From a virus: DNA of 18,947 bases. Numbering within the stretch: the first letter of the stretch is position 1; every line of letters begins with the position of its first letter. This document shows positions 350 through 16,422 of the stretch, one piece after another. The stretch spans positions 1 to 18,947 of IMG/VR virus record IMGVR_UViG_3300045988_012574; one strand, written 5' to 3'. The notes beneath the pieces were generated by a model that searched no databases, was not told where the DNA came from, and saw only the letters and a program-made list of their open reading frames with translations. The position numbers and the translations under genes are program-made.

Positions 350-595
350 ATGATGATTTCAAATATGACTCTCAATGAAAAGAATGAACTGCTGACCACT
401 TTGTGGAATGACCCGTCTGTGACGATTCTTGGTGTCAAGGATGGTGTTACGAGTTCGATTGATCGCGATCAGGCCGTTGATGATTATGAGGTAGCTTTGT
501 ATGATTCGTATCGATTCCTTTTGCCTTATGAAACGGATGACGATTTGCTTCTGTTTTCTGCTGAAGACTTGGAAGCGTTTGCTCGGACGTGGTAA
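350..595 (+). CDS. Small acidic early protein (81 aa), function unknown; the only plus-strand gene
   Basis: The ORF follows the purine-rich RBS aagggaaagga (331-341) and the ITR-edge promoter. A bidirectional terminator follows it. I count 17 D/E against 5 K/R. Confidence 0.7.
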   Translation: MMISNMTLNEKNELLTTLWNDPSVTILGVKDGVTSSIDRDQAVDDYEVALYDSYRFLLPYETDDDLLLFSAEDLEAFARTW

Positions 596-1708: not shown

Positions 1709-2776
1709 CTATTTTCCTAGCAATTCTCCAATGATCAGTCCAAAGTCGGCTTTTACTTGTGAGTCGTCGAACCGTATTTTGCCAAGTCGATAGCCGGTGG
1801 TGAGCCGCCTTATTATATCATCTGATTTTTTGACGTACCATGTTTTTTCGTCTACATGATTCGGGTCTAACGTGTAGACGGGACGTGTGTTGTCTTTGGG
1901 TATGCGTCGTGAAACATATTGTGAAACATGTCCGTCGCGTTCTGACACGCTTACCCATATTCCGAACCGTGCGTAGTCGGTAGTGTCCAGCACGTATGAC
2001 AGTTCGCCATCGCTGGGAATTGGCGCTAGTAACGTGTCCGATTCGTCGCGGAATTTGTTTCTGATCGCATAGTCGGCGTAATCGCTGTCGTACTGCTCAA
2101 GAAATTTGCCGAATTTCGACTGTGCGACTTTCGCACTGAATCCGCCATAGTCGGCCAGTTCGAGACATATGAACCCCCCGCAATATAATTTGTATTGTTG
2201 TTGGTTGGATTGCTGGGAGCCAATGTCGAGTCGGTATTTCGCGAAATACGGATTGGCTTTTTGTACTGCGTTCGAGAGGAATAGTACTTTTGTTCTATCC
2301 TGCCAACGGTCAACTGTATTGTAGAACTCGCTGAACGAGTTCACTTCATTACTTAAAAAGCGCAGATTGTCGGGGAATATTTCATCGAAGATAATCAAGT
2401 GCACTTTAGGATAGGCCACTGACTTCAAGCCGCCCGCTTGCGAGAGGGCGACGAAATAACAGCATGTGCGCCAGTCCTTTTCATCCCATGACGCTTTATG
2501 TATCTGTCCCTTTTCGCCGTTGACTCGAAACTCGTACGAGGGGAAGAACTCTTGAATGTCCTTGAAAAACGTTTCCTTGCGATGCTGTTCCACGTCCGTG
2601 CGGCGTAGGTAAATGAACTCGTGACCGTGTTTCAGATATTCCTTGATGCCGTATCGTTTGGCGGCGAACGTTTTGCCGAGTCCGCGTGCGCCGATTATGA
2701 AATTCCATGGAGCGTTTCGCGTCAACAGATTATGCAGATCGTAATAATCGCCCTCGTCAAGCGTCTGCAATGTCAT
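1709..2776 (-). CDS. DNA packaging (encapsidation) ATPase, phi29 gp16-type
   Basis: Walker A is NFIIGARGLGKTFA, followed by FIYLRRT, and Walker B is HLIIFDEIF. These parallel phi29 gp16 NFVIGARGIGKSYA / FIYVRRY / TIVFDEF as I remember them. The RBS is aggaggg. Confidence 0.9.
   Translation of the reverse strand: MTLQTLDEGDYYDLHNLLTRNAPWNFIIGARGLGKTFAAKRYGIKEYLKHGHEFIYLRRTDVEQHRKETFFKDIQEFFPSYEFRVNGEKGQIHKASWDEKDWRTCCYFVALSQAGGLKSVAYPKVHLIIFDEIFPDNLRFLSNEVNSFSEFYNTVDRWQDRTKVLFLSNAVQKANPYFAKYRLDIGSQQSNQQQYKLYCGGFICLELADYGGFSAKVAQSKFGKFLEQYDSDYADYAIRNKFRDESDTLLAPIPSDGELSYVLDTTDYARFGIWVSVSERDGHVSQYVSRRIPKDNTRPVYTLDPNHVDEKTWYVKKSDDIIRRLTTGYRLGKIRFDDSQVKADFGLIIGELLGK
1812..1820 (-). promoter_or_regulatory. 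Extended -10 box TGaTATAAT embedded in the 3' end of the ATPase gene, a candidate lysis-cassette promoter
   Basis: The minus strand reads tgatataat at 1820..1812, about 115 nt upstream of the holin ATG at 1696. It matches the consensus exactly but lies inside coding sequence. Confidence 0.35.
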
Positions 2777-5799: not shown

Positions 5800-6427
5800 G
5801 ATCTTCTCTTTCTCTGATGTAGATGCAGTTCCCGCAAGAGTAAAAATCGGTCACCCCGTCCGTGACTATCGTTCCGGCTGGGGTGCGCCCCAGGCTCATG
5901 GAAAAATAAAACGGCAGAGCAAACCCCTTTAATGTCCCGGTGGCGGCATAGGAGAAATACAATGGTATCAGGATATTCGGCACGTCCCTCCCGACGGTGT
6001 CCTTCATAGCCATGTTGGATAGTGTCGGCTGAAGGCTGCTCGGGGCTAACGGTGTTCCCTGTTTTTTATCGTCCACCACCCACAGCAGCCCGAACGATTC
6101 AAGATAGTTGCGGGGGGTTTCCCCATTTACAAGCGAGTTGAGATATGCGATGTACGCGACTTTGAGTTGTTCACTCCACACGAGAATGACCTGATCCTCC
6201 AACGCGGTTGATGCTGGAGACGGTGAAATGTCGTTTATGGACAACACTGTTCCCCAGGGCAGCGTTGCCGTCACGTTCGTGCCGTCCGGATCCTTTTGCA
6301 CGTCGAAACCCGCTTGAGAGCATACTTCATCGAGCGCGATATTAAGCTGGGTTCTGAAGTCGCGGCCTTCGGAATCTTTCGACCCCCGAACGGTTGTCGA
6401 GCTTATCGTTTTTTTGATATCCATCAT
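5792..6427 (-). CDS. Hypothetical tail-module protein (211 aa)
   Basis: A long ORF on the coding strand with RBS aagaaaggg. It lies between the collar and fibre genes. I recognise no motif. Confidence 0.7.
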   Translation of the reverse strand: MMDIKKTISSTTVRGSKDSEGRDFRTQLNIALDEVCSQAGFDVQKDPDGTNVTATLPWGTVLSINDISPSPASTALEDQVILVWSEQLKVAYIAYLNSLVNGETPRNYLESFGLLWVVDDKKQGTPLAPSSLQPTLSNMAMKDTVGRDVPNILIPLYFSYAATGTLKGFALPFYFSMSLGRTPAGTIVTDGVTDFYSCGNCIYIREREDHE

Positions 6428-7899: not shown

Positions 7900-8844
7900 T
7901 TATTCCTCTTCCTTGTTTCCGTCAACGTCCAGGAGTCCTCCCGAAGTGGTGTCGTTCCATTCGATACCGATCGGCTTCCCGGAGTCCGCCATTTGCGGCC
8001 ACAGTCGGTTGATCGTATCGCACGCCTGCTGACGTGCCTTCAAGTAGCTTAGGCGGAACACGTTCGTACGACTGTTGCCAGCCGTCACTTCCGACTCAAG
8101 CAGTCGTTCCTTTTTCTCGGTGGTCGAGTTGTCGATTCCCAGGTAGTTTACGAGTTCGTTCCACACTTGCGTTTTCGTGGTGATGATCTTGTCAGCAAGA
8201 AAAGGGGTGACGTTCGGGAAGGTTTGGAACATGCCGGTAATATCCGCACTGTCATATGTATAAATATACGGGTCGCCGTCTTCTCTCGCCTTCATCAGGT
8301 TTTGTGCGGTGAGTTTGTTGGTTTCGGACGTGGCGATGATCAACGGCACACTGATATTGTCAAGGTTCACGTCGAGCGCGCGGTCTGCGATAGCGAGTCG
8401 TGTGGCGTAATTCCACATGACGTCAATCATGGTGCAACGCAACTGGTTATCCCAGATGGGCACGCATTCCTTCGATCCTATTTGCGGGTGCGAGTAGTTC
8501 GTGGCTACGGGCTGAAAAAGCGTAGGATTGTTATAGTTGTTGACTCCGCCGATATTACCCGACGTGACCATAAAACGATGTACCCCCTTACGTTTGTCGG
8601 GGAAAAAGAGGGCCAAACCGTTCTCGAATAGAGTCAGTTCCAAATATCGTCCATCAATGTACGGGGGGAGGTTGATCCATTTGAACCGGCTCACTGCCAG
8701 CATTTCGATCAGTTTCATGTACTGGTTGATGCGCAATGATTGCCGCATTTCAGGCAGATTCAAGTTGCCCCACATTGAGCCGAGCACGCTCTGATTGTCC
8801 CAGTGCGCGGCCTTACGCGCATTATTGCGTTTGCTCATGGTCAC
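7900..8844 (-). CDS. Head-tail connector / portal (upper collar) protein, phi29 gp10-like
   Basis: The protein is 314 aa (gp10 is about 309 aa). [16 protein letters not shown] parallels [43 protein letters not shown] parallels [40 protein letters not shown] parallels SREEACEKINELY. The phi29 sequence is from memory. Confidence 0.88.
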   Translation of the reverse strand: [314 protein letters not shown]

Positions 8845-8894: not shown

Positions 8895-11135
8895 CTAGTA
8901 TGCGATACCGCTGAGCGGCACGTTGTCCGCATAATCGGTGACGCCGATCTTATCGGGATCAGTCCACACCGTCACGCCCGATTCAAAAATTCCCTTCACC
9001 GTAAGCCGGTACTCTTCCGGGCACGTGCTCGAACGCACGTACAATTCGTGCAGTTTCCAATAGGTGAAATTGCTCATTGCCATGAGATTCCCCGGCAGCT
9101 TCATGAACCTTTGCACATAGTATCCGTACCTTAGCCACACTTCGCCAATGGAACGCATGGCTGCCGGTGGTATCTGCCGGAAGCGTACCATGACGCCGAC
9201 CAGTCCGTTCGCGAGATTGAACGCGTCACCGCCCAGTGCGCCGGACGTGGTGGGTGGTACGGTTTGCGTCTGCTGCACTTGCGCATTGATGCCGGCGATG
9301 GTGTTCTCGTAATCGCCTTGCGCCGTGGCCTGGGCGAGTTGCCGGTTCATGTCGGCAAACTGCATTGTCTGTTGATTGCTCAAGTTGGTTTGCGCGAGCG
9401 AGTAGGCGTTAGCCTGCGACGTTGAAGCGTTGTTGGTGGTTTGCGTGTTCGCCAATTGTTGGTTCGCCGTCGAAACATTGTTGTCGTAAGTCATCTGGTT
9501 TGTCCACGCGCCGATCGCGGTTCCTGCGACGGCTCCGACCACACCACCAACATTGCCGGTGGCAGCGGAACCGACTGCGTTGGCCACACCCGATCCGATG
9601 GTGTTGATCTGCGCCATCTGATTATTGAATCCAAGATTCTTCAACGTCAGATCGGTGCCCATCTGCGCGGCCTGGTTGCTGATCGCGTTCATGGCGTTGC
9701 GGTTCGACGTGCCGAGCCGGTTTTGGGCGCTTGCGTATTGCGTGCCGAGCTGGGCCTGAACGTAGGCGTTGTTAATGCCCATTTGCGTTTTCTGAAAACT
9801 CCAGTCCGCGCTTTGTTGGGCGTATTGGCGCGTGTACGCGCTGTTCGCAAGCGCCAAAGCCGAGCCGTCGTTGACCGTCATGAAGGTGGGGAAATTCGTG
9901 ATACCGAAGGATGCGTTGAGCATTTCGCCCGTATCGATGGGCAAACCGTGTCCGTTCGGCAATGGCTGACGTTCTCCCAGGTTTTCCGCATGATATCCGC
10001 GCGCGTAGAAATTCAGGCGCGGGGACGGTGGCGCGTAATTCCATGACTCACGGATAGTCAGATCAGCGCTTGGAATCTGTTCCGGCTCATATGTGATCAC
10101 GGTACCATTCAGGCACGAGCATTCGATATAGGCATATGGCGCAGTAAGGAACTTTTTCAGATACTTGTAGCGTTCGGGAAGATTAAAGGCGTCTCGGAAA
10201 TTCTTCAAGTTGACAATGTCCGCGTAGCGGGCGTTGCTATTGTCGTTCCTCTTGCGTAGTTCCCAACAATTGCCAATAAAACCGACAGAATGCCCGAAAA
10301 GTTCCGTCTTTTTCGGCTGACCATCCAACAACGTTTGCGGCAGATGCGGTACGGCGTAGATGCCGCAAATGCCTTGCGTGACCCATGGCGCGTTCGTGCC
10401 TTCGGTGAAGAATGTGACAATATCGGCGGGCGTATCCAAATAATACATGGATGTGCCATTAAGCTGACTTTCAAACGCGCTACCCGTGGCGGTGTTGACC
10501 ACCGGGTTCTCCTTGGTGCCCGTATCGGCTTCCAGATCGGTGGTGCTTACAATGATCAGCCCGTAGGATGTATGTTCCACGCCATCATGAGTGCCAATAT
10601 CCATGAGTGGCTTCCAAGCTTCGTTGGTGAGTACGGTGCATTTGCCGGTATCGAGTCCTTCGGGGAGGTCAAGATAGGTTTTACCCCAGTCCTTCCAGGC
10701 GTTCTCGTTCGCAATCCCCACATGGCCGCGTTCAACGTAGGCGTTACCCAATTTAATATCATGCTGGAATGACTGCCACACATCCAATTGGATGTTTAGC
10801 TGCGTGGTGTTGGCGTTGATATAGTCGCATGTCTGGATGAAATAATACCACGAACGCGGAGTGTCAAAGTCGTAATCGTTCGTCGCGATCAGATAATTGT
10901 ATTGGCACGCTTGGGCGAACGGCACCGGCAGTCGTACCGGCAACCCATATTTCGACATGGTGCAGTTTGTGAACTCGATGCCGTCCAGCCTGTTGAAATA
11001 CTCTTGCTGAGCCGGTCTGTCCCATTTGACTATATCCCTGTAGCCCATGTCCCACGGGACGTTGCAGAGTTTGAATCGTGTGTTTGGCGTCCATTTCGCA
11101 TAGCTGAAGTTTATAGGCAGATCGTTTGCGCTCAT
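8895..11135 (-). CDS. Tail knob / distal tube protein, phi29 gp9-like
   Basis: WYYFIQTCDYINANTTQLNIQLDVWQSFQHDIKLGNAYVERGHV parallels gp9 [45 protein letters not shown]. The C-terminal RYGYYVQR...GIFESGVTVWTD parallels KYGYKINR...IFDNGITLWHTD. A Gly/Ala/Val-rich loop is flanked by Q/N-rich segments. Confidence 0.85.
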   Translation of the reverse strand: MSANDLPINFSYAKWTPNTRFKLCNVPWDMGYRDIVKWDRPAQQEYFNRLDGIEFTNCTMSKYGLPVRLPVPFAQACQYNYLIATNDYDFDTPRSWYYFIQTCDYINANTTQLNIQLDVWQSFQHDIKLGNAYVERGHVGIANENAWKDWGKTYLDLPEGLDTGKCTVLTNEAWKPLMDIGTHDGVEHTSYGLIIVSTTDLEADTGTKENPVVNTATGSAFESQLNGTSMYYLDTPADIVTFFTEGTNAPWVTQGICGIYAVPHLPQTLLDGQPKKTELFGHSVGFIGNCWELRKRNDNSNARYADIVNLKNFRDAFNLPERYKYLKKFLTAPYAYIECSCLNGTVITYEPEQIPSADLTIRESWNYAPPSPRLNFYARGYHAENLGERQPLPNGHGLPIDTGEMLNASFGITNFPTFMTVNDGSALALANSAYTRQYAQQSADWSFQKTQMGINNAYVQAQLGTQYASAQNRLGTSNRNAMNAISNQAAQMGTDLTLKNLGFNNQMAQINTIGSGVANAVGSAATGNVGGVVGAVAGTAIGAWTNQMTYDNNVSTANQQLANTQTTNNASTSQANAYSLAQTNLSNQQTMQFADMNRQLAQATAQGDYENTIAGINAQVQQTQTVPPTTSGALGGDAFNLANGLVGVMVRFRQIPPAAMRSIGEVWLRYGYYVQRFMKLPGNLMAMSNFTYWKLHELYVRSSTCPEEYRLTVKGIFESGVTVWTDPDKIGVTDYADNVPLSGIAY

Positions 11136-11206: not shown

Positions 11207-12922
11207 CTATGCGGTGACGGTGACCTTTGCCGTTCCGACAGCTCCCGCAAACTTGACAGTGACGTTGGCGTTGCCCTCTGCGGTTCCGGTCAGCACTCCG
11301 TTGGGGGTGATGGTCGCGTGGGCGTCCCCCGTCCACATGGCGAGATTGGTGACGTCTGCGGTGTTGCCGTCCGTCTTGGTGGCGATCGCCTTAAGAGCCA
11401 CATTGCCGTTCACTTTGACCGACTTTTCGCCCTGAATCTCAACGGACTCGATGGCACCGGCCTTCCAGCCACCGAGCCAAGTGCCGACAACAGGCACGGA
11501 CAGTGCGGCGGAAACGGTTTGGTCGATTTCAGGCGTTGCCGGATTGATGTAGGTTGCCTGGGCGGTGACCTTCAGCGTTTCGGCGGTTTCATCCAAACCA
11601 CAACGAAGGATACCGTCATTATCGATCGAGGTGAACTGGGAGGTGGCGCCCTCGACAGTATACTTGATGCCGGTTGGCTGGAATGTCGCCGTTTCCTTGT
11701 TGGCGCTCGTAATGGTGGACACCACCTGTACGAGATCGCCACGGGACACGTTCTGCGGAGTGATGGCGGGCTGACCGTATTTCTGCACGCGCAACTCGAA
11801 TACCGGCGTGGACGTGGTGAGCGTATCCGGCAGAGTCACGGACTCGTTGGAGCCTTTGCCCGTCCAGAACAGGATCGCGTTCGCGAAAGGGTTAGGGGTA
11901 ATGGAACCGCGATGCTTGTAGAAGATGTTGCGCGTGCCGTCAATCGGGTTCACGGGGCTATTGGTGGTTTCCAGCATTTCATCCCAGCAGAAGAAAAAGT
12001 CCTCCGTGGTGAGCACGGCCTGAACCTTGCCGCCCTGTCCGCCGATGCCGAACATATCCTCCGGGATCGGGATAATACGGTACGGAACGTTAACCTTGTC
12101 GATGTTGAACGCGGCGGCGAGTGCTTCGACGTTGAGCGCGGCAATCACCTGCGGAGTGGCGAACAGGATCGCCTCACTATCGCGCCATGGCGTAACCCAC
12201 GACATGGCGTTATATCGTGGCATGGCCGACATTGGAGACGCCTTAAGTTCGTTCGCCATCTGTTGAATGAGGCGCAACAGTCCCTTCGCGTCCGCTTCGG
12301 TCGAGTCGGCCTTGCCAACGTCGGGGGTGTGGACTCGGTAGAAACCGCCCTTGCGCGCGTATTCCGCGAAGGTCTGCGTCTTCATGAGATACATGTCGTT
12401 GCGGTCGGACAAGATCGGCGCGTTCATGATCTCGGAAATGTAGTCCGACATGCCGGACTCGCCGTCGAACGCGGTCAACAAGGCGTCTTCCGGGATGGTG
12501 ACCGGATAATAATGATCGAACGTGAGCGGGTGGAATACGGACGCGGTCGGGAGACTGTAGCGTCCGTAAACGTCGTCGCCCAAATATTCCTTGTTGAAAT
12601 TACGGGTGCGTGCCTTGACCAGGCCAACGGCGGCCTGTTCGTAGGTGGAGCCGTAGCGCTTCAAGGTGCGGGGGGAGCCGACAAGCTTGAGCGGGTCATC
12701 CCAGTCCGCGTGCTGGATATAGAGGCCGATGAGACGCTGAATGAGCACGCCGGTGAACTCGTCACGCAAGTACGGGAAATTACGCATGGTGTCCACCGCG
12801 TTGCGGATATTTCCCTGCGTTGCCGATGGAATACGGGTCTGGAACTGTGGTGAGGCGGCGTTGCGGACGGCATTGAAGATCTCAACGTCGCCTTTACCGG
12901 CCAATGGTCGAACATTAGACAT
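11207..12922 (-). CDS. Major capsid protein (phi29 gp8-like) with C-terminal Ig-like (BIG2-type) domains
   Basis: IFNAVRNAASPQFQTRIPSATQGN parallels gp8 [31 protein letters not shown]...YISEIMNA parallels DSLKTAF...FVSSIINA. ALAAAFNIDK parallels VLAKAFNMNR, and PFANAILF parallels RFANAVAF. The C-terminal VTNLAMWTGDAHATITPNGVLTGTAEGNANVTVKF is BIG2-like. Confidence 0.88.
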   Translation of the reverse strand: MSNVRPLAGKGDVEIFNAVRNAASPQFQTRIPSATQGNIRNAVDTMRNFPYLRDEFTGVLIQRLIGLYIQHADWDDPLKLVGSPRTLKRYGSTYEQAAVGLVKARTRNFNKEYLGDDVYGRYSLPTASVFHPLTFDHYYPVTIPEDALLTAFDGESGMSDYISEIMNAPILSDRNDMYLMKTQTFAEYARKGGFYRVHTPDVGKADSTEADAKGLLRLIQQMANELKASPMSAMPRYNAMSWVTPWRDSEAILFATPQVIAALNVEALAAAFNIDKVNVPYRIIPIPEDMFGIGGQGGKVQAVLTTEDFFFCWDEMLETTNSPVNPIDGTRNIFYKHRGSITPNPFANAILFWTGKGSNESVTLPDTLTTSTPVFELRVQKYGQPAITPQNVSRGDLVQVVSTITSANKETATFQPTGIKYTVEGATSQFTSIDNDGILRCGLDETAETLKVTAQATYINPATPEIDQTVSAALSVPVVGTWLGGWKAGAIESVEIQGEKSVKVNGNVALKAIATKTDGNTADVTNLAMWTGDAHATITPNGVLTGTAEGNANVTVKFAGAVGTAKVTVTA

Positions 12923-12943: not shown

Positions 12944-13231
12944 TTAGTCGAACAAATCTTCGATGGACTCGGTGCCGTCATCGTCTCCGTCGCCGTCATT
13001 GTCGGACGGTGCGGGGTCATTGTAGCCGAGCGTGTCCATCATGGCCTTCAGTCCGGCCAATTCCTTTTCAATCGCGTCAAGGCGTGCGGAAACGTCCGGC
13101 TCCTGCTTCAGATCCGGTTCCGGCTCGGGTTCTTTCGGCTTTACTTCATCGTCCACGGTTTCAGTCTGCTGTTCCTCTTCAGTCGGCGGGGGAGTAGTGG
13201 TTTTCTCGCCGTCATTATCTGGGTCTGCCAT
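12944..13231 (-). CDS. Scaffolding protein candidate (95 aa, very acidic)
   Basis: It lies directly upstream of the capsid gene and is similar in size to phi29 gp7. The central helix is ARLDAIEKELAGLKAMMD. The C-terminal SIEDLFD resembles the gp7 C-terminal TIEDLEAK. The RBS is ggag. Confidence 0.6.
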   Translation of the reverse strand: MADPDNDGEKTTTPPPTEEEQQTETVDDEVKPKEPEPEPDLKQEPDVSARLDAIEKELAGLKAMMDTLGYNDPAPSDNDGDGDDDGTESIEDLFD

Positions 13232-13266
13232 ACAAACTCCTAACGATTGGCAATAGTTTCATAGAA

Positions 13267-13275
13267 ATTATATCA
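13267..13275 (-). promoter_or_regulatory. Extended -10 promoter TGaTATAAT for the structural (late) module
   Basis: The minus strand reads tgatataat at 13275..13267. It is intergenic, just downstream of the terminator at 13316..13283 and 36 nt upstream of the scaffold ATG at 13231. Confidence 0.6.
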
Positions 13276-13282
13276 TGTCGTA

Positions 13283-13316
13283 AGAAAATAAAATGACCCC
13301 GCAATCACGCGGGGTC
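13283..13316 (-). terminator. Intrinsic terminator ending the replication module / small-RNA interval
   Basis: The stem is gaccccgc / gcggggtc (13295..13302 / 13309..13316) with a 6-nt loop. On the minus strand it is followed by auuuuauuuucu. Confidence 0.8.
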
Positions 13317-13452
13317 GAAACGTCCTATGTGAGCGCGAGTTGAAGATCGTAGGGCACTACCGCCACGGTAGTGATGTTCATGATCGGCGGCATTCTCAGC
13401 CGTGGCAGTCCGACCCATGTTGCTCCCAGTCGAAAATCGACGCTCAGAAGAC
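13285..13452 (-). ncRNA. Candidate ~165-nt structured small RNA with its own promoter and terminator (possible pRNA analogue). The alternative reading is a 37-aa micro-ORF at 13305..13418.
   Basis: The interval is bounded by TGcTATAAT (13467..13459) and the terminator (13316..13283). Several helices can be drawn by hand (see finding). No convincing long ORF is present. The 113-aa track ORF here overlaps the polymerase out of frame. Confidence 0.4.
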
Positions 13453-13458
13453 ACAAGT

Positions 13459-13467
13459 ATTATAGCA
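13459..13467 (-). promoter_or_regulatory. Extended -10 box TGcTATAAT overlapping the polymerase stop codon
   Basis: The minus strand reads tgctataat at 13467..13459. The polymerase TAA stop (13462..13460) lies inside the -10 hexamer. Confidence 0.5.
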
Positions 13468-14911
13468 TGACCATTGTTCCGTAATCGTCCATGACCTGCA
13501 CCCCATGTTGAAACTCTTCGTAGGCGATGGGCTGCGAGAACATGTTTCCGGCCATGCATACGTCCACCTCCCCGTCTTCCCTCCATCCCTGATACCGATT
13601 CATACCCAGGATAGTCAGTTTTTCGTATCGTGCGGCGATCTTCCACTTACCCAGTTCAGTCGGGTGAATGTCACATGATCGCACGGGCTCCCAGCCGGAT
13701 AGGATGCAACCGTCCGTGTTCGCATACAATAGCCGATCGGCGTTCGCGTGGCACACGTCCATGAGTTTGCGGCGTGCGTAGGCGTTGACCCAAATAGGCA
13801 CGGGCAGATAGTCGGTTTTCAAATTCGACTCCTCACGCTGCGTAATATCCCAATCCAATGTTATGCCGTCTTTGGAAGTGGGGAGCATGACAGAACCCTT
13901 GGGCAGACTCGCCATTTTCCCTACGAGCGCGTTCATGATCAGCTTTGCCATTTGTCTTTTTTCGCCCGTCGCCTTCTGTTTCAAGTCCCCCCAATCATCA
14001 ACGAACGAACGGAAGAAACCCTTGGAGCGGCGGAACTTCCACCCCCTGACATGCTTGTAGACGCTCACCTCATAATTCTCATAAAGCAATTGTTGGTCAA
14101 TGTCGGTCAATACTCTTGTGATATAGCCACGGGTGGAAATGAGACGGTTAAGCCCGTAGGTACTGCGATTATCGAGTAGAAAAGGGTATCCATCCGGCTT
14201 TAATCCCGCGCGAAACGTGAGTTCGTCGCAATGCAATGGCATGTCGTCGTCTTCCTCATAGTTGCCTTCGTATGGTTCGGGTTCGCCCCACGGGAGCCAT
14301 TCATCGCGCAAAATGCTTGGATACATGCTATTGCAGTCGACGTCGATAGCCTCACCGTACGCCCCTTCCCTGGCTAGCATGAAGCCGCCGATATATGCGT
14401 CATGCAATGACTTTTTATCTTCGGGTTCGAGCTGGGGGAATTTGTCGTAATACCATTTCCACTCGCCGGACGCGAACGCCTCCATGCTTGCCCCGCCCGC
14501 CGTGATCTTGCACAAGTTGCGATTATCGTATTCGCGCAGAATATTGAGTAGTTGCGTGTCAGGCATGGTGAACCGGCAATTCTCGCGCAACAGGTTGGAA
14601 ATGTCGAAGAATCGTGCCGAGTTCTCGCGGTCGATACGCACGGTGAAGCTGAAAAATTTGCCCTTTTTTGAGATGATGGCGTCCCAGCTCAGATTAGAGT
14701 TGTGTTCGTTGTGGGGCAATGCGTGTACGACGTGCGCTATAAATGGGTCAAGCAGTTCGGGATTAGTCACGTAGACGGTGAGTTTGCCGCCCGTCATTAT
14801 GGACGCCAAAAGGCGGTTAGGCGCGGTGACGTCACGCAGGACGGTGCCGTCCGTGAATCGTATGACGTTATCCGCGCACCACAGTCCCACTCTTTTATCT
14901 TGCCTGGTCAT
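13460..14911 (-). CDS. Protein-primed family-B DNA polymerase (phi29 gp2-like), compact at 483 aa
   Basis: Motif A is IDVDCNSMYPS and motif B is KLIMNALVGKMA. Motif C is LYANTDG. The TPR1-like region WLPWGEPEPYEGNY...PLHC parallels LLPYGEPIVFEGKY...PLHI. ITAGGASMEAF parallels MTAGSDSLKGF. Exo II-like is YVTNPELLDPFI. The phi29 sequence is from memory. Confidence 0.95.
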   Translation of the reverse strand: MTRQDKRVGLWCADNVIRFTDGTVLRDVTAPNRLLASIMTGGKLTVYVTNPELLDPFIAHVVHALPHNEHNSNLSWDAIISKKGKFFSFTVRIDRENSARFFDISNLLRENCRFTMPDTQLLNILREYDNRNLCKITAGGASMEAFASGEWKWYYDKFPQLEPEDKKSLHDAYIGGFMLAREGAYGEAIDVDCNSMYPSILRDEWLPWGEPEPYEGNYEEDDDMPLHCDELTFRAGLKPDGYPFLLDNRSTYGLNRLISTRGYITRVLTDIDQQLLYENYEVSVYKHVRGWKFRRSKGFFRSFVDDWGDLKQKATGEKRQMAKLIMNALVGKMASLPKGSVMLPTSKDGITLDWDITQREESNLKTDYLPVPIWVNAYARRKLMDVCHANADRLLYANTDGCILSGWEPVRSCDIHPTELGKWKIAARYEKLTILGMNRYQGWREDGEVDVCMAGNMFSQPIAYEEFQHGVQVMDDYGTMVML

Positions 14912-15975: not shown

Positions 15976-15984
15976 ATTATAGCA
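15976..15984 (-). promoter_or_regulatory. Extended -10 box TGcTATAAT upstream of the terminal protein - polymerase pair
   Basis: The minus strand reads tgctataat at 15984..15976. It is intergenic, starting 4 nt after the SSB stop (15990..15988) and 72 nt upstream of the ATG at 15904. Confidence 0.55.
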
Positions 15985-15987
15985 AGC

Positions 15988-16422
15988 TCACTTGGTTTCC
16001 TCGTCCACCGGCTCGATGCTGAAAAACTTGAAGCCACGGCGGGAGCGACGTTCGACCACCTTGATGCACAGCGGTTCCGTCCAGGTGTTCGGCGTGCCGA
16101 AGATGCCGAACATGGTGTTCAGTCCCGCCGCGAGAGTGGGGGAGGTGGCCGCGTACGCCTTGTTATCGTCGGTCACGATGATGACGCGCACGGTGCTGGA
16201 GATTTCGCCCGTCTGATCGTCGGTCACCTGTACCGCCTGGGCGACGGCGTTCGTCATGTTCAACGGCTCGTTGAGGTGTTCGTCAAGCTTTTCGGCGTTC
16301 TGCAATGCACTGTAGAGCTTGATCTTGCCTTCACGGGTCGAGGTATCGATGAAGTGCTGGACGGTGCCAAGTTCGGTGTTCTCGGTGTTGAAAGCGACGA
16401 GTGCGGTATTGTTGTTTTCCAT
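15988..16422 (-). CDS. Single-stranded DNA-binding protein, phi29 p5-like
   Basis: MENNNTALVAFNTENTELG parallels p5 MENTNIVKATFDTETLEG. AVAQAVQVTDDQTGE...TVRVIIVTDDNKAYAATSPTLAAGL parallels AIAQYKQVSDTYGD...TVTTIFAADGSLYSAISKTVAEAA. IKVVERRSRRGFKFFSIE parallels VKVVQGTSSKGNVFFSLQ. The phi29 sequence is from memory. Confidence 0.7.
   Translation of the reverse strand: MENNNTALVAFNTENTELGTVQHFIDTSTREGKIKLYSALQNAEKLDEHLNEPLNMTNAVAQAVQVTDDQTGEISSTVRVIIVTDDNKAYAATSPTLAAGLNTMFGIFGTPNTWTEPLCIKVVERRSRRGFKFFSIEPVDEETK

What the first reader, a model, noticed from the sequence alone, without database searches (positions are those of the whole stretch)
13285..13467. Promoter- and terminator-bounded ~165-nt non-coding interval downstream of the polymerase: candidate packaging RNA (pRNA)
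Seen in the sequence:
- The polymerase stop codon lies inside an exact extended -10 box (TGcTATAAT, 13467..13459).
- About 165 nt downstream is a clean intrinsic terminator (13316..13283).
- The late promoter (13275..13267) follows immediately.
- The interval is therefore a self-contained transcription unit with a predicted +1 near 13452 and no convincing gene.

Hand-drawn pairings in the minus-strand RNA:
- A 5'/3' closing helix UGAGCG (13446..13441) with CGCUCA (13335..13330).
- Hairpin GUCGA-UUU-UCGAC (13441..13429).
- An interrupted helix CAUG..UCGG (13419..13410) with CCGA.CAUG (13387..13379).
- An 8-bp hairpin CACUACCG-UGG-CGGUAGUG (13373..13355).
- GCCACGG (13406..13400), in a bulge of the first domain, is complementary to CCGUGGC (13368..13362) at the tip of the second hairpin. 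This could be a pseudoknot or an intermolecular loop-loop contact.

Established knowledge: phi29-type motors (gp10 connector plus gp16 ATPase, both present here) need a ~120-174-nt pRNA. That pRNA has its own promoter, lies downstream of the early operon containing the polymerase, and oligomerises through complementary loops at roughly nt 45-48 and 82-85. The complementary segments here are at about nt 47-53 and 85-91 of the predicted RNA.

Inference: this is the pRNA analogue. pRNAs have little sequence conservation, so similarity searches would miss it.
Basis: partly seen in the sequence, partly recalled or inferred. Interest (0 to 1): 0.8.

Follow-up and report, generated by a model that had tools for sequence, protein, structure and literature searches.

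The report
Packaging-RNA-like gene in a Bifidobacterium phage
Just after the DNA polymerase gene, this small phi29-like Bifidobacterium phage encodes a conserved, folded ~168-nt non-coding RNA whose core matches the "prohead/packaging RNA" of Bacillus phage phi29, an RNA so far established only in Bacillus phages.

Summary
Window 13285-13452 (minus strand) is a stand-alone unit. It has an extended -10 box (TGCTATAAT) over the polymerase stop, a ~131-nt structured domain, an intrinsic terminator, and then a second extended -10 box for the late genes.

- **Conservation.** The element sits directly after the polymerase gene in every fetched locus of this phage family that was searched (4 GenBank phages, 1 fecal contig, IMG/VR contigs).
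- **Structure.** On 79 distinct sequences, 96.8% of cells in my structure are paired, against 34-49% for slid controls. 23 of 49 pairs show double-sided changes, against 3-8.
- **The ORF.** The 37-aa ORF is not conserved: its start is lost in 38 of 79 sequences and indels shift the frame.
- **Database search.** Rfam's pRNA model finds phi29 pRNA (145 bits) but nothing here.
- **Architecture.** The core matches the phi29 prohead-binding domain in helix order, element sizes and the position of the complementary loop bases. The bulge's last four bases (GCCA) pair with the D-loop's last four (UGGC). That pairing covaries (GC 73, GU 5, AU 6, none broken).

The phage has a gp10-type connector and a full-length gp16-type ATPase. 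Best reading: a diverged pRNA-type packaging RNA (confidence ~0.58). Function is inferred, not shown.

The parts
13459..13467 (-). Extended -10 promoter TGCTATAAT of the RNA; the polymerase stop codon TAA (13460-13462) lies inside it
   Evidence: 4 TGNTATAAT boxes, all on the minus strand, 0.41 expected; a TGnTAnnnT box is present in 85 of 86 family members, 6-7 nt upstream of the first paired G.
13285..13452 (-). Predicted ~168-nt non-coding RNA (5' end predicted at G13452 +/-2; 3' end in the U-tract)
   Evidence: the covariance model finds a single copy in the window, 199 bits; present directly after the polymerase gene in all fetched loci of this family.
13448..13452 (-). Outer closing helix A1, 5' strand GUCUU; pairs with AGGAC at 13322-13326
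   Evidence: helix 1: 97.7% of cells paired, 2 pairs with double-sided changes.
13322..13326 (-). Outer closing helix A1, 3' strand AGGAC
   Evidence: helix 1.
13441..13446 (-). Closing helix A2, 5' strand UGAGCG; pairs with CGCUCA at 13330-13335
   Evidence: helix 2: the G-C to A-U compensatory change is seen in 7 sequences; the four inner pairs are invariant.
13330..13335 (-). Closing helix A2, 3' strand CGCUCA
   Evidence: helix 2.
13430..13440 (-). Small extra hairpin P1 (UCGA-UUU-UCGA); has no counterpart in phi29 pRNA
   Evidence: helix 3 (99.4% paired). The loop bases vary while the stem is kept. Compensatory changes occur in L085 and L146. RNAalifold proposed a competing long-range pairing, which is not excluded.
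13425..13427 (-). GGG; pairs with CCC at 13352-13354 and closes the three-way junction that carries the C/E arm and the D hairpin
   Evidence: helix 4: 100% paired but nearly invariant, so covariation neither supports nor contradicts it.
13410..13419 (-). C helix, 5' strand (CAUG-GG-UCGG); pairs with 13379-13387
   Evidence: helices 5 and 6: 6 of 8 pairs show double-sided changes.
13403..13409 (-). 7-nt 5'-side bulge ACUGCCA (equivalent to the phi29 CE loop); its last four bases GCCA (13403-13406) are complementary to the D loop
13388..13402 (-). E hairpin CGGC-UGAGAAU-GCCG; its 3' strand runs straight into the C helix 3' strand
   Evidence: helix 8 (99.7% paired). Loop variants are listed.
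13379..13387 (-). C helix, 3' strand (CCGA-U-CAUG)
   Evidence: helices 5 and 6.
13355..13373 (-). D hairpin: 7-bp stem and 5-nt loop GUGGC; the loop's last four bases UGGC (13362-13365) are complementary to the bulge
   Evidence: helix 9: 99.8% paired, 5 of 7 pairs with double-sided changes. One search covers the loop-bulge pairing.
13336..13351 (-). Conserved 16-nt junction strand UACGAUCUUCAACUCG (UACGAU nearly invariant); no partner established
13285..13316 (-). 3' hairpin plus U-tract (intrinsic terminator). The stem covaries while the loop GUGAUU is conserved; possible counterpart of pRNA domain II
   Evidence: helices 10-11.
13267..13275 (-). Second extended -10 box TGATATAAT for the late (scaffold-like/capsid) genes; it uncouples the RNA from the downstream operon
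   Evidence: TGRTATAAT is present in 83 of 86 family members.
13305..13418 (-).
   Evidence: ATG kept in 41 of 79 sequences; replaced by ATA, ACG, ACA or other non-start codons in 37 and by GTG in one. Indels give at least four different downstream frames.

Best explanation
The interval encodes a diverged prohead/packaging RNA (pRNA-type) of a phi29-like Bifidobacterium podophage.

**Shown**
- An independent small transcription unit whose RNA fold is under selection.
- The fold consists of two closing helices formed by the 5' and 3' ends, and a junction carrying a C/E arm and a D hairpin.
- The C/E arm is a C helix, a 7-nt 5' bulge and an E hairpin.
- The last four bulge bases (GCCA) are complementary to the last four D-loop bases (UGGC).

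**Inferred, by analogy with phi29**
- Copies of the RNA pair bulge-to-loop between molecules and form a ring on the connector (gp10 homologue, 7900-8844) of the empty prohead.
- The paired 5'/3' region projects outward and docks the gp16-type ATPase (1709-2776).
- The motor then packages the protein-primed genome, and the RNA leaves before tail attachment.
For: **1. Independent unit**
- The promoter, terminator and second promoter are conserved across the family.
- The RNA's 5' end coincides with the first paired base.
- Because a terminator and a new promoter separate it from the late genes, a purely cis-acting role is unlikely in this family.

**2. Selection on RNA structure**
- 96.8% of cells are paired, against 34-49% for slid controls.
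- 23 of 49 pairs (134 cells) have double-sided changes, against 3-8 pairs (6-23 cells) for slid controls.
- 0 of 500 shuffles reach the observed values.
- Frequent G-U pairs fix the folding strand as the minus-strand transcript.
- The region is as conserved as the flanking coding DNA (81.7% against 80.1% and 78.7%).

**3. Bulge-loop pairing**
- 97.6% of cells are paired, against 27-74% for slid controls.
- The pair G13406-C13362 appears as GC 73, GU 5, AU 6, never broken. All 6 A-bearing sequences have U opposite.
- L146 turns the A-U pair into G-U.

**4. Match to phi29 pRNA**

| Element | phi29 (Rfam consensus) | This RNA |
|---|---|---|
| C helix | 9 bp with an interruption | 8 bp with an interruption |
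| 5' bulge | 9 nt | 7 nt |
| E stem | 4 bp | 4 bp |
| E loop | 6 nt | 7 nt |
| 3' strand, E into C | contiguous | contiguous |
| C-to-D linker | 3 nt | 5 nt |
| D stem | 6 bp | 7 bp |
| D loop | 5 nt | 5 nt |
| After the D hairpin | abuts the closing helix | abuts the closing helix |
| Complementary bases | last 4 of bulge, last 4 of loop | last 4 of bulge, last 4 of loop |

- Tree-edit distance to the phi29 core is 15. Folds of 3000 random windows of this genome give 55.3 +/- 8.6, minimum 29.
- A descriptor of this motif with a D stem of at least 7 bp is expected 0.08 times per shuffled genome.

**5. Context**
- Phi29-type major capsid protein, tail knob, connector and gp16 ATPase are present.
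- The ATPase aligns to phi29 gp16 (7jqq_A) over residues 2-318 of 332, so it includes the C-terminal domain.
- The gene order, polymerase then own promoter then RNA on one strand, is the same as in phi29.

**6. Other lineages**
- More distant lineages carry an analogous element at the same place. Their bulge and loop sequences differ but remain complementary at the 3' end of the bulge: ACC/GGU, CAU/AUG, AUCA/UGAU.
Against: - There is no match to Rfam RF00044, even at E <= 10 in a 600-nt search.
- The 5'/3' region differs from phi29's long A helix. It has an extra hairpin and a 16-nt conserved single strand, and no CCA-bulge counterpart was identified.
- One of the four kissing pairs (A13403-U13365) is broken in 8 of 84 distinct sequences.
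- Composition-preserving shuffles of bulge and loop give a complementary run of the same length fairly often: P = 0.08 for the window and 0.05-0.7 for other lineages. Complementarity alone is therefore weak evidence; the covariation and shared register carry it.
- Sequence cannot tell whether the pairing is between molecules or within one molecule.
- In the other lineages the 3' hairpin lacks a U-tract and no second promoter is evident. There the element could simply be the 5' leader of the late mRNA.
- There is no expression, prohead-binding or packaging data.
Confidence: 0.58

Rival explanations
1. It is a structured non-coding RNA with a function other than packaging. Examples are a leader or attenuator that tunes read-through from the early operon into the late genes, or a trans-acting RNA that binds a phage or host protein. 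Under this reading, the bulge-loop pairing is an intramolecular tertiary contact between two side-by-side helices, as in three-way-junction riboswitches.
For: - In the BadAztec, L091/L092, L093-L110 and L109/L111 lineages the element lies between a promoter at the polymerase stop and the scaffold-like gene. No U-tract or second promoter is evident there.
- The distance from the junction to the bulge (about 8-9 bp) is similar to the distance to the D loop (7 bp). That is compatible with an intramolecular contact (inference).
- The conserved loop of the 3' hairpin and the conserved 16-nt single strand suggest additional binding sites with no known pRNA counterpart.
- There is no Rfam pRNA hit.
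Against: - In the window's family a strong terminator and a second promoter separate the RNA from the late genes in 83 of 86 members. The RNA is nevertheless conserved with covariation. That argues for a trans-acting product.
- The element-by-element match to the phi29 prohead-binding domain would have to be coincidence.
- No known riboswitch or leader family matches.
Confidence: 0.3
2. The interval is only plumbing: the terminator of the polymerase operon plus two promoters. Conservation would then reflect those signals and the polymerase C-terminus, not a functional RNA.
For: - The promoter boxes and the terminator are real and conserved.
- The single-sequence folding z-score is only -2.89.
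Against: - Eleven helices (49 pairs) lie between the signals; 23 pairs show compensatory changes and 96.8% of cells are paired.
- Indels are tolerated only in loops and linkers.
- Conservation equals that of the coding flanks.
Confidence: 0.04
3. The interval encodes the 37-aa peptide (13305-13418) noted by the reader.
For: An ATG with GGGAG 4 nt upstream exists in the window.
Against: - The ATG is kept in only 41 of 79 sequences. It is replaced by non-start codons (ATA, ACG, ACA and others) in 37 and by GTG in one.
- Indels of +1, -1 and -2 nt give at least four different frames and lengths after residue ~12.
Confidence: 0.01

Closest known systems
phi29-family prohead/packaging RNA (pRNA; Rfam RF00044; phi29, PZA, M2/Nf, B103, SF5, GA-1)
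   Same: - Encoded by a protein-primed podophage that has a gp10 connector and a gp16 ATPase.
- Own promoter at the downstream end of the polymerase-containing early operon.
- Similar size: ~168 nt here, 174 nt in phi29.
- 5' and 3' ends paired.
- A junction carries a C helix, 5' bulge, E hairpin arm and a D hairpin.
- The 4-nt Watson-Crick complementarity uses the last four bulge bases and the last four D-loop bases (phi29 45-AACC-48 / 82-GGUU-85, PMC2241910; here GCCA/UGGC).
- A 3' hairpin domain follows domain I.
   Different: - No detectable sequence similarity, and no hit with the Rfam model.
- The host is an actinobacterium with a ~53% G+C genome.
- The gene sits mid-genome, co-oriented with the late genes, not at the genome end.
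- The A region is split into short helices with an extra hairpin and a conserved 16-nt single strand, instead of one long helix with a CCA bulge.
- The loop of the 3' hairpin is conserved.
- The function is untested.
Predicted 'packaging RNA' annotated in Actinomyces phage Av-1 (NC_009643, misc_RNA 16295-16402), and the pRNA proposed for Streptococcus phage Cp-1
   Same: These are earlier suggestions that non-Bacillus phi29-like phages encode a pRNA (PMC6266182 mentions the Cp-1 pRNA).
   Different: - They are single-sequence predictions at the genome end, without comparative support.
- The Av-1 feature overlaps annotated ORFs. Neither RF00044 nor my model hits it.
- PMC6266182 reports that a pRNA covariance model could not reliably find the Cp-1 RNA.
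- The element here is at a different locus and is backed by covariation in 84 distinct sequences.
Three-way-junction RNAs with intramolecular loop-loop contacts (for example purine riboswitch aptamers; from my own knowledge)
   Same: Two helical arms of similar length emerge from a junction, with complementary loop bases.
   Different: - Those are cis-acting leaders with ligand pockets. No Rfam riboswitch model matches here.
- In this family the RNA is transcriptionally uncoupled from the downstream genes.

Membership tests
phi29-type pRNA (Rfam RF00044) | Scores at or above the RF00044 covariance-model gathering threshold (100 bits) | tested here: not met
   No hit in the window at gathering, and none at E <= 10 in 13100-13700. 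Positive control: phi29 pRNA scores 145.4 bits. The model is built from closely related Bacillus phage sequences.
phi29-type pRNA | Encoded by a phage with a phi29-type connector (gp10) and a pRNA-dependent gp16-type ATPase | tested here: met
   Pfam Phage_connector 1.6e-39 and Podovirus_Gp16 3.7e-45. PDB 7jqq_A gp16 aligns over residues 2-318 of 332. Phi29-type connector structures match at E of 1e-26 to 1e-29.
phi29-type pRNA | Separate small transcript (120-174 nt) with its own promoter, downstream of the early operon that holds the polymerase | tested here: inconclusive
   The sequence signals are present and conserved, and the gene order is the same as in phi29. No transcript data are available.
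phi29-type pRNA | 5' and 3' ends pair to form the A helix (ATPase-binding arm, with a functionally required bulge) | tested here: inconclusive
   The 5'/3' pairing is confirmed with covariation (helices 1, 2, 4). However, the arm is interrupted by an extra hairpin and a 16-nt single strand, and no CCA-bulge counterpart could be assigned.
phi29-type pRNA | Junction carrying a C helix, 5'-side CE bulge and E hairpin (3' strand contiguous), plus a D hairpin | tested here: met
   helices 5, 6, 8 and 9 (92-99.8% paired, 12 pairs with double-sided changes). Element sizes are compared with phi29. Tree-edit distance is 15, against 55.3 +/- 8.6 for random windows.
phi29-type pRNA | CE-loop and D-loop bases are Watson-Crick complementary (2-5 bp in known members) and are kept complementary in evolution | tested here: met
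   GCCA/UGGC: 97.6% of cells paired. One pair covaries (GC 73, GU 5, AU 6, none broken), one is invariant, one tolerates U-G, and one is broken in 8 of 84. The register is the same as in phi29.
phi29-type pRNA | The loop-loop pairing is intermolecular and builds a ring on the prohead | not testable with these tools
   Requires native gels, analytical ultracentrifugation, trans-complementation of loop mutants, or cryo-EM.
phi29-type pRNA | Binds the connector/prohead, is required for DNA packaging (RNase-sensitive), and is absent from mature virions | not testable with these tools
   No experimental data. The only hint is the basic connector N-terminus MSKRNNARKAAH.
cis-regulatory leader / attenuator of the late operon | Lies between the only promoter and the regulated genes, so that its fold controls downstream expression | tested here: not met
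   In the window and in 83 of 86 family members, a terminator with a U-tract and a second extended -10 box lie between the RNA and the late genes. In other lineages this feature may be met.
small protein-coding gene | Start codon and reading frame conserved among relatives | tested here: not met

The most novel reading that the evidence does not exclude
Packaging RNAs are not a peculiarity of Bacillus phi29-like phages. They would be an ancestral part of the phi29-type motor that has drifted beyond sequence recognition. In Bifidobacterium phages the RNA sits at the polymerase/late-gene boundary. In several lineages it is made from the same promoter as the late mRNA, which would couple motor assembly to late transcription. 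The extra hairpin, the conserved single strand and the conserved 3' hairpin loop would then be lineage-specific contacts with the ATPase or prohead.
Probability: 0.45. Interest if true: 0.8.

Novelty: new variant of a known kind. Interest (0 to 1): 0.68.

Why it matters
pRNA is described as the only natural RNA known to build a functional multimeric ring (PMC4201828). A 2024 review calls it unique to phi29 and related Bacillus phages (PMC11476376).

- **Origin of the RNA.** A second, sequence-unrelated family with the same core in actinobacterial phages would show that the RNA component of this motor is old and widespread. That bears on whether pRNA is a relic or a late replacement of a protein domain.
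- **Natural variation.** It would give an independent data set on which parts of the RNA are essential: the junction, the kissing loops and the ATPase-binding arm.
- **RNA nanotechnology.** It would add new G+C-rich three-way-junction and kissing-loop modules.
- **Testability.** Four relatives are cultured (BP1 and BD811P1-3), so the prediction can be tested directly.
- **Annotation.** The covariance model built here would let the element be annotated in gut viromes. At least 86 loci have already been found.

Tried and rejected
- **Rfam.** A gathering search of the whole window gave nothing. A permissive search of 13100-13700 gave only sub-threshold chance hits. HgcG scored 21.6 bits against a gathering score of 77, on the opposite strand, driven by the terminator hairpin. 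Cis8, CRISPR-DR10 and sR55 had E > 1.
- **The 37-aa ORF and the 113-aa ORF overlapping the polymerase.** Rejected, because the start and frame are not conserved.
- **RNAalifold's alternative.** It pairs the P1 region with the 3' single strand to give a longer A helix. I did not adopt it. The three P1 loop positions are the ones that vary, and L085 and L146 carry compensatory changes within P1. It is not excluded as an alternative conformation.
- **My covariance model R1 on other phages.** It gave no match on phi29, BadAztec2 or Av-1. It reaches only L109/L111 weakly (19.5 and 16.1 bits).
- **BadAztec relatives.** Only two sequences are available, too few for covariation. The fold there is tentative.
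- **Exact-pattern scan of 185,579 bacterial and archaeal genomes.** The most conserved 20-mer gave 20 hits in unrelated taxa. All are local matches with no full-length element and no Rfam family, so they are chance. No Bifidobacterium genome carries the RNA.
- **Motif descriptor.** It recovers phi29 pRNA and this RNA, but it is not very specific. Shuffled genomes give 0.85 hits with a D stem of at least 5 bp, and 0.08 with at least 7 bp. I use it only as a rough probability.
- **Shuffling bulge and loop bases.** Complementary runs of the observed length are not rare given the composition. I therefore do not count cross-lineage complementarity as strong evidence.
- **Arthrobacter (Mendel), Curtobacterium (Thatch) and Av-1.** The gaps between the polymerase and scaffold genes fold into structured regions with strong terminators. 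I could not assign a pRNA-like core from single sequences.
Full report
**1. What the window is**

The 18.9-kb window is essentially a whole genome of a phi29-like podophage. On the minus strand it encodes:
- a type-B DNA polymerase (13460-14911);
- a Phi29-type major capsid protein (11207-12922);
- a tail knob protein (8895-11135);
- a gp10-type connector (7900-8844);
- a gp16-type encapsidation ATPase (1709-2776).

The nearest annotated relatives are Bifidobacterium phages BP1 (about 81% nucleotide identity over the region) and BD811P1-3 (about 74%), plus a human fecal contig. The ATPase aligns with phi29 gp16 in the cryo-EM motor structure 7jqq over residues 2-318 of 332, so its C-terminal domain is retained. 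The connector matches solved phi29-type connectors.

**2. The observation**

- TGCTATAAT lies at 13459-13467 and contains the polymerase stop codon.
- A 9-bp, G+C-rich hairpin with a U-tract lies at 13285-13316.
- TGATATAAT follows at 13267-13275.
- TGNTATAAT occurs four times in the window, always on the coding strand, against 0.41 expected. The other two copies are at 15976-15984, ahead of the ORF-plus-polymerase operon, and at 1812-1820.
- The single-sequence fold is modestly better than shuffles: -63.4 kcal/mol, z = -2.89.

**3. Conservation and structure**

A polymerase-based scan of IMG/VR returned 80 loci with 74-93% amino-acid identity. A profile search found the element directly after the polymerase stop in all 85 loci then in hand, giving 78 distinct sequences.

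I then built a covariance model and realigned the sequences to it.

| Measure | This structure | Slid controls |
|---|---|---|
| Cells paired | 96.8% | 34-49% |
| Pairs with double-sided changes | 23 of 49 | 3-8 |
| Cells with double-sided changes | 134 | 6-23 |

None of 500 column shuffles reaches the observed values. The uncorrected MAFFT alignment gives the same picture: 94.8% paired and 20 pairs with double-sided changes.

- The D hairpin (5 of 7 pairs), the C helix (6 of 8), the inner closing helix and the terminator stem all show clear compensatory changes.
- G-U pairs are common, so the structure belongs to the minus-strand transcript.
- The RNA region is as conserved as the neighbouring coding DNA: mean pairwise identity is 81.7%, against 80.1% for the polymerase 3' end and 78.7% for the next gene.
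- The model finds exactly one copy in the window.

**4. The ORF rival**

The ATG of the 37-aa ORF is kept in only 41 of 79 sequences. It is replaced by non-start codons (ATA, ACG, ACA and others) in 37, and by GTG in one. Indels in linker regions put the downstream part into at least four different frames. It is not a gene.

**5. Transcription unit**

- An extended -10 box of the form TGnTAnnnT precedes the RNA in 85 of 86 members. It ends 6-7 nt before the G that starts the outer closing helix.
- TGRTATAAT follows the terminator in 83 of 86 members.

In this family the RNA is therefore separated from the late genes by a terminator and a fresh promoter. That argues for a trans-acting product rather than a leader.

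**6. Comparison with phi29 pRNA**

Rfam's RF00044 finds phi29 pRNA in the phi29 left end (145.4 bits; gathering score 100). It finds nothing in this window, in BadAztec2 or in Av-1. Membership by that model therefore fails.

The Rfam consensus structure printed can still be compared element by element with the structure supported here.

| Element | phi29 pRNA | This RNA |
|---|---|---|
| C helix | 5+4 bp with a 1-nt bulge | 4+4 bp with a small internal loop |
| 5'-side bulge | 9 nt | 7 nt |
| E hairpin stem | 4 bp | 4 bp |
| E hairpin loop | 6 nt | 7 nt |
| E 3' strand into C 3' strand | contiguous | contiguous |
| C-to-D linker | 3 nt | 5 nt (3-7 in the family) |
| D hairpin stem | 6 bp | 7 bp |
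| D hairpin loop | 5 nt | 5 nt |
| After the D hairpin | directly abuts the closing helix | directly abuts the closing helix |

- In phi29 the intermolecular pairing uses 45-AACC-48 and 82-GGUU-85 (PMC2241910). These are the last four bases of the bulge and the last four of the D loop.
- Here the last four bulge bases are GCCA and the last four D-loop bases are UGGC.
- The tree-edit distance between the two cores is 15. MFE folds of 3000 random 76-nt windows of this genome give 55.3 +/- 8.6, minimum 29. The unconstrained MFE of the core gives the same distance of 15.
- A simple descriptor of the motif finds the true phi29 pRNA and this RNA. It is expected 0.85 times per shuffled genome with a D stem of at least 5 bp, and 0.08 times with at least 7 bp.

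Gene order is also shared. Polymerase, own promoter and RNA lie on one strand; in phi29 a few small ORFs sit between the polymerase and the promoter.

**7. The bulge-loop pairing**

In 84 distinct family sequences the four proposed pairs are formed in 97.6% of cells, against 27-74% when slid.

| Pair | Pair types observed |
|---|---|
| G13406-C13362 | GC 73, GU 5, AU 6, never broken |
| C13405-G13363 | invariant |
| C13404-G13364 | CG 80, UG 4 |
| A13403-U13365 | AU 75, GU 1, broken in 8 |

- All six sequences with A at the first position have U opposite. They come from about five separate lineages (L003; L073/L076; L085; L122; L155).
- The contact is therefore 3-4 bp. That is within the range reported for known pRNAs: 2-5 potential pairs (PMC4201828), with only two G-C pairs seen by NMR in phi29 (PMC2241910).

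**8. Differences from phi29**

- The 5'/3' region is not one long helix. It consists of GUCUU/AGGAC, an internal loop, UGAGCG/CGCUCA, a small extra hairpin (P1), and a nearly invariant GGG/CCC that closes the junction.
- Opposite these lies a 16-nt single strand whose UACGAU is almost invariant.
- RNAalifold offers an alternative in which P1 opens and pairs with that strand. The variation favours P1 but does not exclude a switch.
- The loop of the 3' hairpin (GUGAUU) is conserved although its stem covaries. The hairpin is therefore probably more than a terminator.

**9. Wider distribution**

A profile of polymerases recovered further lineages from IMG/VR. These are three divergent members of the same family (111-125 bits), L109/L111 (19.5 and 16.1 bits, full-length, same locus), the BadAztec group, L091/L092 and L093-L110.

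Each of these lineages has the following:
- a -10-like box overlapping the polymerase stop;
- a ~120-130-nt domain closed by its 5' and 3' ends;
- a G+C-rich hairpin;
- then the scaffold-like gene.

In each I can draw a C helix, 5' bulge, 4-bp E hairpin with a contiguous 3' strand, and a D hairpin. The bulge's 3' end is complementary to the D loop in every case.

| Lineage | Bulge / D-loop complementarity |
|---|---|
| L109 and BadAztec | ACC/GGU |
| L091/L092 | CAU/AUG, with compensatory changes in the C and D stems |
| L093-L110 | AUCA/UGAU, with an AUCG variant giving G-U |

I treat this as suggestive only. I chose the element boundaries myself, and the D stems are short in two lineages. 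Shuffling the bulge and loop bases also gives equal runs with P = 0.05-0.7.

These lineages lack a U-tract and an obvious second promoter. There the RNA may be made as the 5' part of the late transcript.

**10. Where it is not found**

The most conserved 20-mer has only chance local matches in 185,579 bacterial and archaeal genomes. None is in Bifidobacterium.

**11. Literature**

- Reviews state that pRNA is known only for phi29 and related Bacillus phages (PMC11476376, PMC5066667).
- Covariance models extend it within Bacillus phages, but not reliably to Cp-1 (PMC6266182).
- The Av-1 GenBank record carries a predicted "packaging RNA" at its right end. Neither model supports that feature.
- I found no paper describing an RNA at this locus in Bifidobacterium phages.

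**12. Verdict**

The interval is a real, conserved, structured small RNA gene. Its core is a close architectural match to the prohead-binding domain of phi29 pRNA, and it sits in a phage with the matching motor proteins. I give:
- about 0.58 to a packaging-RNA function;
- about 0.30 to another RNA function in which the contact is intramolecular;
- a few percent to the remaining rivals.

It fails the only sequence-based membership test (RF00044) and differs in the ATPase-arm region and in genome position. I therefore class it as a new variant of a known kind. The function is inferred and directly testable in the cultured relatives.

Noticed in passing
window 1812-1820, 13267-13275, 13459-13467, 15976-15984 (all minus strand): There are four exact TGNTATAAT extended -10 boxes, all on the coding strand (0.41 expected). 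The two TGCTATAAT copies precede the RNA and the operon ending in the polymerase gene. The two TGATATAAT copies precede the late genes and sit inside the 3' part of the ATPase gene. This may be an early/late promoter distinction.
   Followed up: partly
window 13392-13398 (E-hairpin loop), alignment A6 columns 64-70: The loop occurs as UGAGAAU in 56 sequences and as UGAAAAC in 26, with only 3 other variants. Two loop positions, three bases apart, change together. They are too close to pair directly, so the cause is unexplained. It could be a tertiary motif, a protein contact or simple linkage.
   Followed up: partly
window 13295-13316; also L109 3038-3062 and L093-L110: The stem of the 3' hairpin covaries (CCCCGC/GCGGGG to CCCUCC/GGAGGG). 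Its loop GUGAUU is kept in more than 80 of 86 sequences. It recurs as GCGUGAUUGU in L109/L111 and as GCGAUUG in the L093-L110 lineage. The hairpin seems to have a sequence-specific role beyond termination.
   Followed up: partly
window 13336-13351: A 16-nt segment after the D hairpin (CCC-UACGAU...) is nearly invariant at UACGAU and has no established partner. L109 has the related GCCUACGGUU. This could be a protein- or RNA-binding site, or the partner in an alternative conformation with the P1 hairpin.
   Followed up: partly
L087/L089 12706-12883 (BadAztec2), L090, L091, L092, L093-L110, L109, L111: the ~180 nt after the polymerase stop: Distant Bifidobacterium-type phi29-like phage lineages all carry a -10-like box over the polymerase stop. 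A structured ~120-130-nt domain and a G+C hairpin follow, but no U-tract or second promoter precedes the scaffold-like gene. The RNA may be the 5' part of the late mRNA there.
   Followed up: partly
L088 (Actinomyces phage Av-1) 16295-16402 and 4471-4611; L190 (Arthrobacter phage Mendel) 4934-5105; L189 (Curtobacterium phage Thatch) 4397-4606 and 1-728: The annotated 'packaging RNA' of Av-1 is not supported by RF00044 or by my model. Av-1, Mendel and Thatch each have a small gene after the polymerase (annotated as ribbon-helix-helix in Mendel). A structured non-coding gap follows, ending in a very strong terminator just before the scaffold-like gene. Thatch also has 728 nt without annotated genes at its left end.
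   Followed up: no
window 7900-8844 (connector), N-terminus: The connector begins MSKRNNARKAAH, a cluster of basic residues at the extreme N-terminus. From memory, an N-terminal RKR in phi29 gp10 contacts pRNA. This is suggestive only.
   Followed up: no
window 413-470 (+) and 6303-6371 (+): Two further matches to my loose pRNA-core descriptor lie on the non-coding strand. Their number is in line with chance expectation (0.85 per shuffled genome).
   Followed up: partly
L169-L188 (bacterial genomes and MAGs): The 20-mer CCACGGCTGARAAYGCCGCC occurs once each in 20 unrelated, mostly G+C-rich bacterial genomes. There is no flanking similarity and no Rfam family, so these are chance matches.
   Followed up: yes
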